A DNA stretch of 32,000 nt from Candidatus Saccharimonadota bacterium (GTDB taxonomy: Bacteria > Pseudomonadota > Gammaproteobacteria > Enterobacterales > Enterobacteriaceae), in NCBI RefSeq assembly GCF_023585745.1, contig NZ_CP097762.1, positions 540,001 through 572,000 of the forward strand. Direction: 5' to 3'. Shown here piece by piece: positions 6,338 through 13,965 of this stretch. The position numbers and the translations under genes are program-made. Every line of letters starts with the position of its first letter. Position 1 is the first letter of the stretch. The notes under the pieces are model-generated. The model searched no databases. It was not told the DNA's origin and worked only from the letters and a program-made list of their open reading frames with translations.

Positions 6338-7681
6338 TTAATCCAATTGTATAAAATTAATATCATTATTCATTTTTTTACACATATTAAATTCACAAAT
6401 ACCCAATTCAAATTCATGACGAAAATATTTTAATGCGCTTTTCAAAGGACCTACAGCTCCTGGTGCGTGTGCGCAAAAAGTTTTTCCAGGACCTAGTAAA
6501 TAACATAATCTTTCTAATAACTCTATATCCCCATTTTTGGCCTTTTTATGTTCTAAAGCAATTAATAATTTTACTATCCAAGGTAATCCATCTCTGCATG
6601 GAGTACACCATCCGCACGATTCTCTAGAAAAAAACTCTTCCAAATTACGCATGAATGACACTATACTTACAGTATTATCTATTACTATAGCCATACCTGT
6701 CCCAAATCTACTACCAAGATTCTGAATATTTTGAAAATCCATCGGTGTATCTAAATTAGTTTGCAGTAAAAAATCTGTACTAACACCACCTGGTTGCCAG
6801 GCTTTTACAAAAAATCCAACACGCATACCCTGAGCATAATCTTCTAAAATTTCTCTAGCAGTTGTTCCAAAGGGCAATTCCCAAACTCCAGGATTATTAA
6901 CTTTTCCAGAAAAACCCATCAATTTTGTACCAGAATCATTACTGTTTTTGGCAGATAAATTTTTGTACCAAGACACTCCATGCTCAATAATACCTGGAAT
7001 ATTACATAATGTTTCTACGTTATTCACACAAGTCGGTTTACCCCATAAACCCATATCACTCGGAAATGGGGGTTTAGCCCTAGGTATACCACGACGACCC
7101 TCTAATGAATTAATTAATGCTGTTTCTTCTCCACAAATATAACGCCCTGCACCAGTATGCAAATATAAATCTAAATTAAATCCGCTATTTAAAATATTTT
7201 TGCCAAGCAATCCAATTTCGTGAATTTCATTAATAGCGCGTGTTAAATATGCGGCTGCTGTCATATATTCATATCGTAAAAAGATATACGCACAAGTTAC
7301 CTGTAAAGCATAACTTGAAATTAATATTCCTTCTAACAATAAATGAGGTAAATTTTCCATCAAAAATTTATCTTTGTAGGTACCCGGCTCCATTTCATCT
7401 GCATTACATATTAAATAACGAGCATCATTAGATTTATTTTGAAACATTATTGACCATTTTGTCCCAGTAAGAAACCCACCACCACCACGACCCCTTAAAC
7501 CAGACTCCTGAATTAATTTCACTATCTCCTCTGGAGACATATAATTTATCGCTGTATATACTGATTTATACCCATTTTTAGCCTTATACTCACGTAACCA
7601 TACAGGCTTTTTTTTATCAAAATGCATTCTCCAAGTTAACGGATGACTTTCTGGACGAACATTATTATGTATTTTACTCAT
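6338..7681 (-). CDS. nuoF: NADH-quinone oxidoreductase subunit F (NADH/FMN-binding)
   Basis: The ORF track gives 6338..7729, but alignment to E. coli NuoF (MKNIIRTPETHPLTWRL...) supports the internal start [19 protein letters not shown] at 7681. That start forms an ATGA overlap with the nuoE stop. Motifs [22 protein letters not shown] and [11 protein letters not shown] are present. Confidence 0.95.
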
Positions 7682-8208
7682 AAATACTTTCCTAATAATT
7701 TTGAAATTGTCTCCGGTACTACATAACAATAAATATCTTGATTTACCATAATTACAGGAGCTTTATCGCACATCCCTAAACAACAAGTCGGTAATAAAGT
7801 AAAATTATTATCTGCAGTCGTCTCTCCTGCGCATATCCCTCCTAAAATATTAATTAATTTATTTTTAATATTTTCATACCCAGTAAGGTAACACACTGCA
7901 CTATCACAATAACGAATTATATAACGTCCAACAGGCTGACGAAAAATTTGATTATAAAAAGTAGCTACTCCCTCTAAATCAACAGTGGAAATACGCAAAA
8001 TTTTTGCAATAGATACTATCGCATTGTCTGATACCCAACCCCTATTTTTTTGCACAATTTTTAAAGCTTCAATAGAAGCTGCACGATTATTTTTGTAAAA
8101 AGTACACTCCTTTCTAATAGCATTATGTTCTTCTGTGCTTAGCTGAAAATCATGCGTACCACTTGTTTTTCTAACAATTTTCTTATTATAAATATTGATA
8201 TTACTCAT
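7678..8208 (-). CDS. nuoE: NADH-quinone oxidoreductase subunit E (2Fe-2S)
   Basis: 176-aa [53 protein letters not shown] and [14 protein letters not shown] match E. coli NuoE. Confidence 0.95.
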
Positions 8209-10109: not shown

Positions 10110-10676
10110 TCATTCATTTTCAGAATCTAATATAGTTTCAGCCATACGTTTAGCACTTTTATTTTGACGTTCTGATTGCATATTTTTTTTATATATACCC
10201 GTATTACCTAAAACCCAAGACAATGGACGTCTTTCTTGGCTAATTGCTTTCTTTAATAATAACAAACCTTGAATATATGCTTCCGGTCTAGGAGGACAAC
10301 CTGGGATATAAACATCCACTGGCAAAAATTTATCTACTCCTTGTACCACTGAATAAATATCATACATACCACCAGAATTAGCGCAAGCTCCCATAGAAAT
10401 CACCCACTTGGGCTCTAACATTTGATCGTACAATCGTTGAATCACCGGAACCATTTTAATAAAAGGAGTACCCGCGATAACCATAAGATCTGCTTGTCTC
10501 GGTGATGCGCGTAATACTTCAGATCCAAATCGAGCTACATCATGAACCGAAGTGAATGCCGTAGTCATTTCAACATAACAACACGACAATCCAAAATTAT
10601 AAGGCCATATAGAATTACTGCGACCCCAATTCACAATTTTATGTAACATTACACTTAATTTTCCAAAAAAAAACAT
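10110..10676 (-). CDS. nuoB: NADH-quinone oxidoreductase subunit B, intact conserved core ORF (188 aa) from an internal ATG
   Basis: [33 protein letters not shown]...[11 protein letters not shown]...PGCPPRPEA matches E. coli NuoB residues about 40-220, including the N2 cluster cysteines. The ancestral N-terminus lies upstream but is frame-disrupted (next feature). Confidence 0.9.
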
Positions 10677-10787
10677 TCCGTTGTACTTTTTCTTCTAAAG
10701 GATCAGAGACAACATAATTTTTTTGTAGAGGATACAAATCATTTTTTTATCATTACTAGTTTTAGCTACTGTTAAAGTATACTTCAT
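10677..10787 (-). other. nuoB: Ancestral 5' end of nuoB, split from the core ORF by two compensating frameshifts in homopolymer runs
   Basis: The ATG at 10787 has AGGA 7 nt upstream and encodes MKYTLTVAKTSNDKK (E. coli MDYTLTRIDPNGEND). After an A7 run (plus-strand T7, 10742-10748) homology continues only in a shifted frame, [25 protein letters not shown] (E. coli [25 protein letters not shown]). After a T9 run (plus-strand A9, 10665-10673) it returns to the original frame. Unshifted reading hits TAG at 10695-10697. Confidence 0.8.
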
Positions 10788-10839
10788 AAATTATTCCTGA
10801 TAAAATGCTCTAAAGCATTAATAATTATACTAAATAATA

Positions 10840-11251
10840 CTAATAATTATTTTTTGATATAGTCACAGGCTTTTTTATCCAATTAAACACATCCATTCTT
10901 ATTAAATACAATAAACCTACCAACAAAACTAACACAAAAACAAACATTTCGATAAATCCTAACCATCCAACATCACGTATAGATATCGACCATATATATA
11001 TATATACCTTCCACATCAAAAATTACAAAAACCATCGCTATCAAATAAAATTTTATAAAAAATTTAACTTTTACGCTCCCTAAAGACTCAACACCAGATT
11101 CAAATGGTACATTTTTAGAATACGCAATAGAACGCCCGCCTAAAAAATGTCCACACAATAACATAAAACCACACAAAATTATAATTCCAAATACAAATGC
11201 TAGAATACCACAGCATTGAGGACTTAAACATATCATACAATCCCACCACAC
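10840..11251 (-). pseudogene. nuoA: NADH-quinone oxidoreductase subunit A, frameshifted inside a (TA)7 repeat (412 nt, not a multiple of 3)
   Basis: The upstream frame (GTG 11251 or ATG 11236, to TGA at 10973) gives ...[51 protein letters not shown], then a nonsense tail. The +1 frame after the repeat gives [42 protein letters not shown], ending at TAG 10840-10842. That matches E. coli NuoA [40 protein letters not shown]. Confidence 0.85.
10992..11006. repeat. (AT)7A dinucleotide microsatellite at the nuoA frameshift site
   Basis: Direct read: the run atatatatatatata, flanked as ccatatatatatatatacctt. One more TA unit would restore GIYIYIWS, which aligns without gaps to E. coli ALYLFAWS. Confidence 0.9.
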
Positions 11252-11754
11252 ACATTGACCAAATAATAATAATAAATTTTATAAAAACTTTTTTGATATT
11301 ATTAATAATTTATTCATACAATGCAAAATTAACTTAATATTCTAACTAATTATTATATCATATAATATTCCTATATTTAATCACACTATCTGAAGTTAAC
11401 ATTATAAAAACCTAATTATAATATTATATTAATAAAATATAATGATATAAACCTATACTATTATAATAATGTTTATCAATATAAAATTCTTAATATTCTA
11501 ATAATGCAATTTTTTAATTATAGAAATAACTGAAAAATTACGATTTTATTGCAATACCATACATAAACAATCTTGATTTATATTAAACATAAATATTAAT
11601 TTACATTACAAAAAATTTTTTATCACATAATCTATGTGCATACAGACAATCATGTTAATTATGACTAATATATTATAATAATATCTTAATATAATTAAGA
11701 ATTATCTTTATAAATAATATTCTTCAGACAATGCTTTAAATAAGTAACTGTTTG

Positions 11755-13092: not shown

Positions 13093-13965
13093 TCAATTAA
13101 AAACCTTTGGGACTGGTTGTTGAGTCAACTTCGCTAATAAACTTGCTATTTTATATCTTAAATCCAATCTACGTACAATTAAATCAATCGCGCCTTTTTG
13201 TAATAAAAATTCACTTTTTTGAAATTCTAATGGTAATTTTTCCCGAACAGTCTGAGCAATAACTCTAGGACCAGCAAACCCTATAAGTGCTTTAGGCTCA
13301 GCAATATTTATATCGCCTAACATAGCTAAACTAGCGGACACCCCCCCCATAGTAGGATTAGTTAAAACAGAAATATATGGTAAACACTCTATATATAGAT
13401 TAGCTAACGCTGCGCTAGTTCTAGCCATCTGCATTAAAGATATAAAAGCCTCTTGCATTCTAGCACCCCCGCTAGCAGAAAAACAAACTAAAGGACATCT
13501 TAAAGACAAAGCTCTGTTTACTGCTAGCACAAAACGTGCTCCTACTACTGAAGACATAGATCCGCCTATAAAATCAAATTCAAATGCCGCAACAACAATG
13601 TTCATACCATATAATTTACCTTGCATTACTACTAATGCATCTTTTTCTTTTGTTATTTTTTGTGCTAAGATCAATCGATCTTTATATTTTTTTAAATCTT
13701 TAAATTTTAAAATATCTTTAGGACTTAATTCAATAGCTAATTCCGACGCACTTTTTGGATCTAAAAAGGATAATAAACGAACCCGAGCTGAAATTTTCAT
13801 GTGATTATCACATTTAGGACATACTTCTAAATTACGCTCTAATTCTTTTTTATATAGCAATTGCCCACACAAATCACATTTGGTCCATATACCCTCTGGA
13901 ATTTTTTTTTTGCGAGTCGGTATAATTGTCTTCTTGCTAAGAATACGTTCAATCCAGCTCATCAT
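13093..13965 (-). CDS. accD: Acetyl-CoA carboxylase carboxyltransferase beta subunit
   Basis: MMSWIERI...[35 protein letters not shown] (zinc finger) matches E. coli AccD. The second ATG (13962) has better SD spacing and matches the E. coli start MSWIERI. Confidence 0.95.

What the first reader, a model, noticed from the sequence alone, without database searches (positions are those of the whole stretch)
10665..10787. nuoB: two mutually compensating frameshifts, each inside a homopolymer run, bracket a still-conserved 23-codon segment
In the minus sense, an ATG at 10787 with a good SD encodes MKYTLTVAKTSNDKK, which resembles the E. coli NuoB N-terminus. At an A7 run (plus-strand T7, 10742-10748) the conserved reading switches frame: [25 protein letters not shown] versus E. 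coli [25 protein letters not shown]. At a T9 run (plus-strand A9, 10665-10673) it switches back into the frame of the 188-aa core ORF. The 10787 ATG and the 10676 ATG are 111 nt apart, so they share a frame, but literal translation stops at TAG 10695-10697. One extra A in the first run and one fewer U in the second would give a 225-aa NuoB (E. coli 220 aa). The out-of-frame segment keeps high amino-acid similarity in a fast-evolving AT-rich genome. That argues either for very recent lesions or for continued decoding. Transcriptional slippage at poly(A)/poly(T) tracts has been reported to rescue frameshifted genes in Buchnera and Blochmannia. Needing two slippage events in one mRNA would be an unusual case. 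Alternatively the cell makes an N-terminally truncated NuoB from ATG 10676.
Basis: partly seen in the sequence, partly recalled or inferred. Interest (0 to 1): 0.75.

Follow-up and report, generated by a model that had tools for sequence, protein, structure and literature searches.

The report
Doubly frameshifted nuoB in ant endosymbiont
In a Blochmannia-type ant endosymbiont, the complex I gene nuoB carries two real-looking one-base length changes in A/T runs that cut off its first 37 codons, and the cell most likely makes a shortened but canonical-sized NuoB from an internal ATG rather than repairing the message twice.

Summary
In detail: ATG 10787, A7 (10742-10748), conserved shifted frame (10743-10666), T9 (10665-10673), 188-aa core ORF (10110-10676) and stop TAG 10695-97 are all as described. 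The shifted-frame similarity to NuoB is real (Y19, P20, D29, P30, invariant in 24 sequences, are kept).

Six Blochmannia relatives have intact nuoB. Four have T8 where the window has T9 (two have interrupted runs), and all are 2 nt shorter at the A7 site.

The lesions are not random. Of 53-54 coding A/T runs of 7 nt or more in 32 kb, only these two break a frame (P about 0.009 for such proximity). Adjacent nuoA is also frameshifted, at a (TA)7 repeat.

Double transcriptional slippage is quantitatively implausible: E. coli RNAP figures imply about 0.04-0.1% doubly corrected mRNA. No frameshift-stimulating RNA structure is present.

The T8->T9 insertion itself brings the ATG inside AAT-GTT into frame. 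The resulting 188-aa protein keeps every residue ordered in the E. coli complex I structure and scores like the full-length protein against the NuoB family models.

Best reading (about 0.4): real indels, with truncated NuoB made by reinitiation after a 30-codon remnant ORF. Rivals: early pseudogenisation, local assembly error, double recoding. It is a modest variant of known endosymbiont homopolymer frameshifts.

The parts
10795..10798 (-). Shine-Dalgarno-like AGGA, 7 nt upstream of the ancestral nuoB start
   Evidence: Read directly. It is one of the better SD matches among the 24 gene starts in the window.
10695..10787 (-). Remnant 5' ORF of nuoB: ancestral ATG (10787-85), 15 authentic NuoB codons, then 15 out-of-frame codons, then stop TAG 10697-95. 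Under the favoured model it acts as a 30-codon upstream ORF.
   Evidence: MKYTLT is invariant or nearly invariant in 24 NuoB sequences.
10742..10748 (-). Lesion 1: A7 run (plus-strand T7). The window is 2 nt longer here than all six relatives. The frame is restored by A8 (+1) or A5 (-2).
10666..10743 (-). Out-of-frame but still conserved 26-codon NuoB segment, [26 protein letters not shown]
   Evidence: Its divergence to the outgroups is 0.48, against 0.42 for intact relatives.
10677..10694 (-). 18-nt A-rich spacer (AAGAAAAAGTACAACGGA) between the remnant-ORF stop and the internal ATG
   Evidence: The region is not more structured than shuffles (z = +0.2).
10665..10673 (-). Lesion 2: T9 run (plus-strand A9). 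Four relatives have T8 (GTT TTT TTT GGA) and two have interrupted runs. The +1 T puts the ATG embedded in AAT-GTT into the core frame.
10110..10676 (-). 188-aa NuoB core ORF starting MFFFGKL. It contains the whole NuoB family domain and the four conserved cysteines (C69, C70, C135, C164 in full-length numbering), which from general knowledge ligate cluster N2.
   Evidence: TIGR01957 scores 226.6 bits against 226.0 for the 225-aa reconstruction, and PRK06411 scores 239.8 against 241.3. Pfam PF01058 is matched.
10992..11006 (-). Lesion 3, in the neighbouring gene nuoA: a pure (TA)7T repeat that is 2 nt shorter than the homologous stretch in the relatives compared
   Evidence: It is the only TA repeat of 6 or more units in the window.
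10840..11251 (-). nuoA, split into a 92-aa N-fragment (GTG 11251 to TGA 10975-73; TM1-TM2 with FDVEG) and a 58-aa C-fragment (ATG 11016-14 to TAG 10842-40; TM3)
   Evidence: Pfam PF00507 matches profile positions 3-62 in the N-fragment and 57-99 in the C-fragment.

Best explanation
The window comes from a Blochmannia (Blochmanniella) lineage sister to the B. pennsylvanica / B. vicinus clade. Its nuoB has suffered two genuine replication-slippage indels in simple runs: T8->T9, and either A8->A7 or A5->A7. The full-length 225-aa reading frame is closed, because the literal frame stops at TAG 10695-97.

The T insertion moved the ATG hidden in the Asn-Val codons (AAT GTT) into the frame of the core. 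The gene is therefore now expressed mainly as a 188-aa NuoB lacking the N-terminal extension of about 37 residues that is specific to gammaproteobacteria.

Ribosomes loaded at the original SD and ATG (10787) translate the 30-codon remnant ORF, terminate at TAG, and reinitiate 18 nt downstream at ATG 10676. Full-length NuoB from double transcriptional or ribosomal slippage is at most a trace by-product.

What is shown: the lesions, their polarity relative to six relatives, the frame geometry, the intact domain, and the clustering. What is inferred: reinitiation, the function of the truncated protein, and the order of the two events.
For: (1) All six relatives have intact nuoB of 222-236 aa. Four have T8 and two have interrupted runs where the window has T9, and all are 2 nt shorter at the A-run site.
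(2) The other 22 genes in the window are full length, and 51-52 of 53-54 coding A/T runs of 7 nt or more are in frame, including two 10-mers, so this is not a generally error-ridden assembly.
(3) The clustering is non-random: P = 0.009 for two tract lesions within 80 nt, and 3e-3 to 5e-4 for three lesions within 345 nt. That fits lesions surviving only where they are tolerated, and does not fit operon-wide neutral decay.
(4) ATG 10676 is brought into frame by the T insertion itself. The same geometry recurs in nuoA, where the ATG in GAT-GTG is brought in frame by the -2 indel. The chance expectation is 0.12 per site.
(5) The 188-aa product equals the full-length reconstruction against the general NuoB models. 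Most NCBIfam NuoB models are 166-196 positions long, so 188 aa is the canonical size.
(6) In the E. coli complex I cryo-EM model, NuoB residues 1-42 are not resolved and the model starts at residue 43 (PMC8357420 Table 2). The window ORF starts at the equivalent of residue 37.
(7) All residues invariant across 24 sequences, including the four conserved cysteines, are retained. nuoCD, nuoE and nuoF show no meaningful rate acceleration (ratios 1.01-1.11), so complex I still looks selected.
(8) The region around the ATG is unstructured, and many genes in this genome lack a strong SD.
Against: (1) None of the 120 closest NuoB homologues is truncated. All are 210-236 aa, even in Buchnera with genomes of about 420 kb. 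The N-terminal extension is therefore normally under purifying selection, and its loss may cripple the protein.
(2) There is no SD at a proper distance before ATG 10676, and reinitiation is untested.
(3) The out-of-frame segment shows no extra decay. That is equally expected if the lesions are very recent, or if they are not real.
(4) nuoA is also broken. If split NuoA is non-functional, the state of NuoB is moot.
(5) The NuoB core shows a slight excess of substitutions (0.104 against 0.064 to the outgroups, small counts).
(6) No reads, transcripts, peptides or conspecific genomes were available. The source genome is not in the searchable collections.
Confidence: 0.4

Rival explanations
1. Early pseudogenisation. 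nuoA and nuoB are dead, complex I is being lost in this lineage, and the rest of the operon has not yet had time to decay.
For: There are three independent frame-breaking indels in two core subunits. No truncated NuoB exists among 120 relatives, which suggests the N-terminus matters. Rates in NuoB (ratio 1.30) and NuoA (1.13) are slightly raised. Homopolymer indels are the recognised first step of gene erosion in Blochmannia (PMC3017870).
Against: Under neutral decay of a dead 14-kb operon, three of three lesions falling in the first 600 nt or so has P of about 3e-3. nuoCD, E, F, G, H, I, J and K are all full length although they contain homopolymers of 8 nt. There is no rate acceleration in nuoCD, E or F. 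All catalytic residues of NuoB are intact. All published Blochmannia genomes listed keep nuoA-N (PMC4389277 supplement).
Confidence: 0.22
2. Local sequencing, assembly or polishing artefact. The true genome has T8, A8 (or A5) and (TA)8, and both genes are intact.
For: All three differences are length calls in simple repeats, the classic error class. They cluster within 345 nt, as expected for a locally poor consensus such as a closed gap. The out-of-frame segment shows zero extra divergence. Restoring the relatives' T8 gives a perfect NuoB. At least one Blochmannia genome was finished by gap filling of short-read contigs (PMC7365800), though that genome is probably not the source.
Against: The other 51-52 long coding homopolymers, including 9- and 10-mers, are all in frame. 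The errors would be of mixed sign (+1, then -1 or +2, then -2). A 7-mer is an unlikely error site when 8- to 10-mers elsewhere are correct. The in-frame ATGs at both lesions would be coincidence (about 0.015 jointly).
Confidence: 0.18
3. Double recoding. Full-length NuoB is still made because RNA polymerase adds an A at A7 and drops a U at U9 in the same transcript, and/or ribosomes shift -1 on A-AAA-AAA and +1 on U-UUU-UUU.
For: Slippage-mediated rescue is documented in Blochmannia and Buchnera at long poly(A) runs, with 12-50% corrected transcripts (Tamas 2008 as summarised in PMC5009743; PMC3017870). U9 is long enough for appreciable deletion slippage (about 10% at T8 with E. coli RNAP). 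Both runs allow perfect P-site re-pairing. The inter-lesion segment is still conserved.
Against: With E. coli RNAP, A7 gives 0.39% insertion and no reporter rescue below A8, so joint correction is about 0.04-0.1%. No downstream RNA structure exceeds shuffles (z = -0.6, 0.0, +0.2). The lesions are not conserved in any relative, unlike the 'ancient frameshifts'. Published cases involve one lesion per gene. The nuoA lesion, in a dinucleotide repeat, would need yet another mechanism.
Confidence: 0.1

Closest known systems
Homopolymer-frameshifted genes of Blochmannia and Buchnera rescued by transcriptional slippage (Tamas et al. 2008; Wernegreen et al. 2010; Williams & Wernegreen 2010, PMC3017870)
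   Same: Same organism group. Indels lie inside poly(A)/poly(T) tracts of an otherwise intact, conserved gene. The U9 tract is in the slippage-prone length range.
   Different: There are two lesions rather than one, and one is in a 7-mer below the effective slippage length. The lesions are not shared with any sequenced relative. nuoB is not named in the text read from those papers, and 'nuo' does not occur at all in the B. vafer paper. An in-frame internal ATG offers a route that needs no slippage.
Compensatory indels in Blochmannia protein-coding genes (Williams & Wernegreen 2013, PMC3622351)
   Same: Two non-triplet indels in repeats whose lengths sum to 0 or 3, in one gene.
   Different: The published definition requires the indels to lie within 20 bp, and fewer than 6 bp are read out of frame. 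Here they are about 70 nt apart and the intervening literal frame is closed by a TAG, so the frame is not restored for translation.
N-terminal truncation by internal restart after an upstream frameshift (bacterial termination-reinitiation / translational coupling; named from general knowledge)
   Same: An upstream ORF ends 18 nt before an in-frame ATG that heads the conserved domain, and the original SD still loads ribosomes.
   Different: It is not demonstrated here, and there is no SD before the internal ATG. I know of no described case for NuoB.
Mitochondrial ND3 (the NuoA homologue) with an untranslated extra nucleotide in birds and turtles
   Same: A frameshift lesion is tolerated in a complex I membrane subunit of a reduced, vertically inherited genome.
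   Different: That case is a single conserved +1 site decoded by ribosomal frameshifting. Here the nuoA lesion is a -2 change in a TA repeat and is not conserved.

Membership tests
NuoB / complex I 20-kDa subunit (PF01058, TIGR01957, PRK06411) | Significant match to the family models above the curated cut-offs | tested here: met
   For the 188-aa ORF, TIGR01957 scores 226.6 bits (cut-off 142.7), PRK06411 scores 239.8 (cut-off 116) and PF01058 scores 89.6 (cut-off 27).
NuoB / complex I 20-kDa subunit (PF01058, TIGR01957, PRK06411) | Four conserved cysteines (from general knowledge, the ligands of Fe-S cluster N2), in the CCxxE...C...CP motifs | tested here: met
   C69, C70, C135 and C164 are invariant in 24 sequences and present in the window.
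NuoB / complex I 20-kDa subunit (PF01058, TIGR01957, PRK06411) | Operon context nuoA-nuoB-nuoCD-nuoE... | tested here: met
   The ORF order in the window matches the Blochmannia gene order (PMC4389277 supplement).
Enterobacterial-type full-length NuoB (about 220 aa, with the MxYTLT...YPLQ...DPL N-terminal extension) | One uninterrupted ORF encoding the extension and the core | tested here: not met
   The frame is broken at A7 and T9, and the literal product is 30 aa. All 120 closest homologues are 210-236 aa.
Slippage-rescued homopolymer frameshift genes (Tamas 2008 type) | A single indel inside a long (about 9 nt or more) A/T tract | tested here: not met
   There are two indels. One tract is 9 nt and the other only 7 nt.
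Slippage-rescued homopolymer frameshift genes (Tamas 2008 type) | Frameshift maintained across strains or species ('ancient frameshifts') | tested here: not met
   Six relatives at 75-83% protein identity are all intact at both sites. No conspecific genome was available.
Slippage-rescued homopolymer frameshift genes (Tamas 2008 type) | A heterogeneous mRNA pool containing frame-corrected transcripts | not testable with these tools
   This needs cDNA amplicon sequencing.
Compensatory indel pairs (Williams & Wernegreen 2013) | Indels within 20 bp of each other | tested here: not met
   The runs are at 10742-48 and 10665-73, about 69-77 nt apart (definition in PMC3622351).
Compensatory indel pairs (Williams & Wernegreen 2013) | Each indel is non-triplet and their combined length is 0 or 3 | tested here: met
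   The pair is -1/+1 (sum 0) or +2/+1 (sum 3) relative to the intact relatives.
Programmed ribosomal frameshift sites | Slippery sequence plus a downstream stimulatory structure or upstream SD-like stimulator, conserved in relatives | tested here: not met
   The runs permit re-pairing, but downstream folds do not differ from shuffles (z = -0.6 to +0.2), and the relatives need no shift.

The most novel reading that the evidence does not exclude
Simple-repeat indels have remodelled the 5' end of the nuo operon into a string of small coupled cistrons: NuoA TM1-2, NuoA TM3, a 30-codon leader ORF, and a 188-aa NuoB core. In each gene, an ATG hidden out of frame in conserved codons was brought into frame by the indel itself, and complex I still works. 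That would show that the NuoB N-terminal extension, conserved throughout gammaproteobacteria, is dispensable and that NuoA can function split. It would also show that 'cryptic restart codons' next to slippery repeats buffer endosymbiont genes against frameshift decay without any recoding.
Probability: 0.25. Interest if true: 0.55.

Novelty: new variant of a known kind. Interest (0 to 1): 0.35.

Why it matters
Frameshifts in A/T runs are the main entry point to gene loss in reduced endosymbiont genomes, and such genes are often counted as 'intact' on the assumption that slippage rescues them. This locus is a case where that assumption fails on the published numbers, because it needs two lesions corrected and one is a 7-mer. 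A different, cheaper escape is available: an internal ATG created by the indel, which leaves a canonical-size NuoB. If confirmed, it would give a natural deletion experiment on the function of the conserved enterobacterial NuoB N-terminus, which is unresolved in the E. coli complex I model read here. It would also warn annotators against both 'pseudogene' and 'slippage-rescued' labels for such genes. If the lesions are assembly errors, the value is only as a quality flag for that genome.

Tried and rejected
(1) Exact-sequence look-ups of the 188-aa NuoB, NuoCD and NuoE found nothing. The source genome is not in the collection, so no conspecific or read-level check was possible.

I obtained relatives instead through NuoCD homologues and the look-up of encoding contigs.

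(3) I suspected that B. pennsylvanica and B. vicinus might share the frameshift, because their NuoB was not named in the first hit list. This was rejected: their loci encode intact 236- and 226-aa NuoB.

(4) I looked for naturally truncated NuoB of about 188 aa among close relatives and found none in the top 120.

(5) I looked for frameshift-stimulating RNA structure and found none beyond shuffles.

(6) I tried to date the lesions from divergence of the 26-codon segment and from relative rates. There are too few sites and no close relative, so the most that can be said is 'no detectable extra decay'.

(7) The Camponotus nipponensis symbiont genome (29.0% GC) was considered as the source. This is unlikely, because its reads are in SRA and no near-identical Logan NuoCD appeared; the best hit was 81%.

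(8) My first nuoA reconstruction inserted the extra TA at the wrong end of the repeat and created an artificial stop. Extending the repeat at its 3' end gives GIYIYIW, which matches the relatives.

(9) Wernegreen et al. 2010 (PMC2877537) is not held in the library.

Full report
**What is in the sequence**

On the minus strand, AGGA (10798-10795) is followed 7 nt later by ATG 10787. This opens a 30-codon ORF, MKYTLTVAKTSNDKKMICILYKKIMLSLIL, closed by TAG 10697-10695. Inside it lies an A7 run (10748-10742). From that run on, the -1 frame reads [26 protein letters not shown] (10743-10666). A T9 run (10673-10665) follows. ATG 10676-10674, immediately before the run, opens a 188-aa ORF ([19 protein letters not shown]..., ending at 10110).

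**Is the shifted-frame similarity real?**

Yes.
- Joining the three pieces (+1 A, -1 T) gives a 225-aa protein. It matches NuoB over 96-100% of its length at 70-83% identity, with E down to 1e-124.
- The best named relatives are Blochmanniella vafra (80%) and B. floridana (75%).
- In a 24-sequence alignment, the invariant N-terminal columns M1, Y3, L5, T6, Y19, P20, D29, P30, G42, K43 and L44 are all kept by the window. Y19, P20, D29 and P30 lie in the out-of-frame segment.

**Who is it, and what do relatives have?**

NuoCD (595 aa, intact) is 80-81% identical to B. vicinus, B. pennsylvanica and a Camponotus sp. symbiont. It is 75% identical to B. floridana and B. vafra, and 72% to the Colobopsis and Polyrhachis symbionts. 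The window is therefore a Blochmannia lineage sister to the pennsylvanica/vicinus clade. It is absent from the searchable collections, since exact look-ups of three of its proteins failed.

I fetched the nuoA-nuoB-nuoCD loci of six relatives (L081, L083, L084, L086, L087, L088). All encode intact NuoA (120-148 aa) and NuoB (222-236 aa).

DNA alignment shows three things:
- **Second run.** B. pennsylvanica, the Logan relative, the Camponotus sp. symbiont and B. vafra have GTT TTT TTT GGA (T8). B. vicinus and B. floridana have interrupted versions. The window has T9, a +1 insertion into an ancestral, mutation-prone T8.
- **First run.** All six relatives are 2 nt shorter than the window. The intact ancestor was either A8 (one extra Lys codon, then -1) or A5 (same length as the relatives, then +2). 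Both restore a perfect NuoB.
- **The intervening stop.** The TAG that closes the literal frame is embedded in the conserved TTA-GAA (Leu-Glu of DPLE) and is present in all relatives. The inter-lesion frame was therefore never open. The two indels 'compensate' arithmetically but never restored a translatable full-length frame.

**Surroundings: nuoA is broken too**

nuoA (10840-11251) switches frame inside a pure (TA)7T repeat (plus strand 10992-11006). The relatives compared have 2 more nt there (ATA TAT NTN TAT NNT TGG), and one more TA unit would give [17 protein letters not shown].

Everything else in the 32 kb gives a full-length ORF: nuoCD, E, F, G, H, I, J, K, folC, accD, truA, pdxB, fabB, prmB, aroC, mntH, nupC, gltX, ligA, cysK, ptsH and ptsI.

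A census found 54 coding homopolymers of 7 nt or more (53 of them A/T runs), comprising 32 of 7 nt, 17 of 8, 3 of 9 and 2 of 10. Only the two in nuoB break a frame. The nuoA repeat is the only TA repeat of 6 or more units in the window.

Simulation results:
- Two random tract lesions within 80 nt in one gene: P = 0.009 (0.003 if weighted by tract length).
- Three lesions within 345 nt: P = 5e-4 over all coding sequence, or 3e-3 within the nuo genes alone.

The lesions are therefore not independent random events. That argues against scattered assembly error and also against neutral decay of a dead 14-kb operon.

**Can slippage rescue full-length NuoB?**

Rescue at long poly(A) runs is documented for Buchnera and Blochmannia, with 12-50% corrected transcripts (Tamas et al. 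2008 as summarised in PMC5009743). Blochmannia annotators routinely treat genes with a single homopolymer lesion as intact (PMC3017870 and PMC4389277).

This locus, however, needs +1 at an A7 and -1 at a U9 in the same molecule. For E. coli RNAP, insertion at A7 was 0.39% by NGS. No reporter rescue was seen below A8 or below T7. Deletion at T8 gave about 10% (PMC6260861). The product is about 0.04-0.1%. Even allowing for a sloppier endosymbiont polymerase or some P-site ribosomal slippage, well under 1% of normal full-length NuoB is expected.

No RNA structure downstream of any of the three sites exceeds dinucleotide shuffles (z = -0.6, 0.0, +0.2, -0.9). None of the relatives carries the lesions, unlike the 'ancient frameshifts'. 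The pair also fails the published definition of compensatory indels in Blochmannia, which requires them to lie within 20 bp with less than 6 bp out of frame (PMC3622351).

**What the geometry suggests instead**

In the ancestral ...CGG AAT GTT TTT TTT GGA..., the ATG is out of frame. A +1 insertion in the T run puts it in frame with the core. The lesion that destroys the long ORF therefore creates the 188-aa ORF.

The first lesion puts ribosomes from the original SD and ATG into a frame that ends at TAG, 18 nt upstream of that ATG. Without the first lesion they would run past the ATG to TAA 10641-39. This is the layout of a short upstream ORF coupled to a downstream start. Termination-reinitiation over such distances is established bacterial behaviour (general knowledge, not tested here).

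Strikingly, nuoA has the same geometry. The ATG embedded in GAT-GTG (Asp-Val of FDVEG) is brought into frame with the TM3 part by the -2 indel. That gives a 92-aa N-fragment and a 58-aa C-fragment, which together cover the Pfam model (positions 3-62 and 57-99 of 99). By chance such an ATG lies within 4 codons of a site with P = 0.12, so two out of two is suggestive (about 0.015, post hoc).

**Would the truncated NuoB be plausible as a protein?**

- It scores the same as the full-length reconstruction against the general NuoB models: TIGR01957 226.6 vs 226.0 bits, and PRK06411 239.8 vs 241.3. Most NCBIfam NuoB models are 166-196 positions long, so 188 aa is the canonical NuoB size.
- In the E. 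coli complex I cryo-EM model, the NuoB residues built are 43-76, 86-179 and 190-220, so residues 1-42 are unresolved (PMC8357420 Table 2). The window ORF begins at the equivalent of E. coli residue 37.
- The four conserved cysteines and all other invariant residues are intact.
- Relative-rate comparison against B. floridana and B. vafra gives ratios of 1.11 (NuoCD), 1.01 (NuoE) and 1.11 (NuoF). The rest of complex I therefore still looks constrained. The out-of-frame segment is not detectably accelerated (0.48 vs 0.42).

**Evidence against a functional truncation**

All 120 closest homologues of the 188-aa ORF are 210-236 aa long, including Buchnera with tiny genomes. The extension is therefore normally kept by selection, and a truncated NuoB may be a hypomorph. 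The NuoB core also shows a few extra substitutions (0.104 vs 0.064, small counts).

**Verdict**

My ranking is:
1. Real indels, with the main product a truncated NuoB made by internal (re)initiation: about 0.40.
2. Incipient loss of complex I: about 0.22.
3. A local assembly artefact covering about 350 nt: about 0.18.
4. Functional double recoding: about 0.10.
5. Other explanations make up the remainder.

Homopolymer frameshifts in Blochmannia are well known. The double lesion with an indel-created restart codon, mirrored in nuoA, is a modest new variant. Nothing here can be settled without reads, cDNA or peptides.

Noticed in passing
window 10840-11251 (-), repeat at 10992-11006: nuoA is also frameshifted. 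A pure (TA)7T repeat is 2 nt shorter than in the relatives compared, splitting the gene into a 92-aa TM1-TM2 fragment and a 58-aa TM3 fragment. The fragment's ATG (11016-11014, embedded in GAT-GTG) is in frame only because of the indel, which is the same geometry as in nuoB.
   Followed up: partly
window 10788-10842 (-): The NuoA C-terminal tail is about 18 aa shorter than in relatives, and a 52-nt spacer separates the nuoA stop from the nuoB ATG. Relatives have a 2-5 nt spacer or a 4-nt overlap, so ancestral nuoA-nuoB translational coupling is probably lost.
   Followed up: partly
window 10695-10697 (-) and the homologous positions in L081, L083, L084, L086, L087, L088: The TAG that terminates the literal nuoB frame is built into the conserved Leu-Glu codons (TTA/TTG GAA) of the DPLE motif and exists in every relative. 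Any -1 lesion upstream of it would always be terminated there.
   Followed up: yes
window 13341-13348 (accD): A C8 homopolymer lies inside accD, which is unusual for a 29% G+C genome. It is in frame.
   Followed up: no
window 11252-11754: There is a gap of about 500 bp without an ORF between folC and nuoA. B. turneri has a hypothetical gene (BTURN675_488) at this position, and B. pennsylvanica and B. vicinus also have 660-690-bp gaps. It may hold the nuo promoter or a decayed gene.
   Followed up: no
window 7678-7729: The longest nuoF ORF starts at TTG 7729 and overlaps nuoE by 52 nt, giving 463 aa against 443-445 aa in relatives. The real start is probably further downstream.
   Followed up: no
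protein P0121 (NCBI, 8.5-kb contig): A 729-aa protein matches NuoCD at 73% identity over 86% of the query, about 130 aa longer than normal NuoCD. It may be a fused or mis-called NuoB-CD.
   Followed up: no
window, all gene starts: Many genes (nuoCD, ligA, truA, mntH and others) have no recognisable Shine-Dalgarno sequence, so absence of an SD before an internal ATG is weak evidence against its use in this genome.
   Followed up: partly
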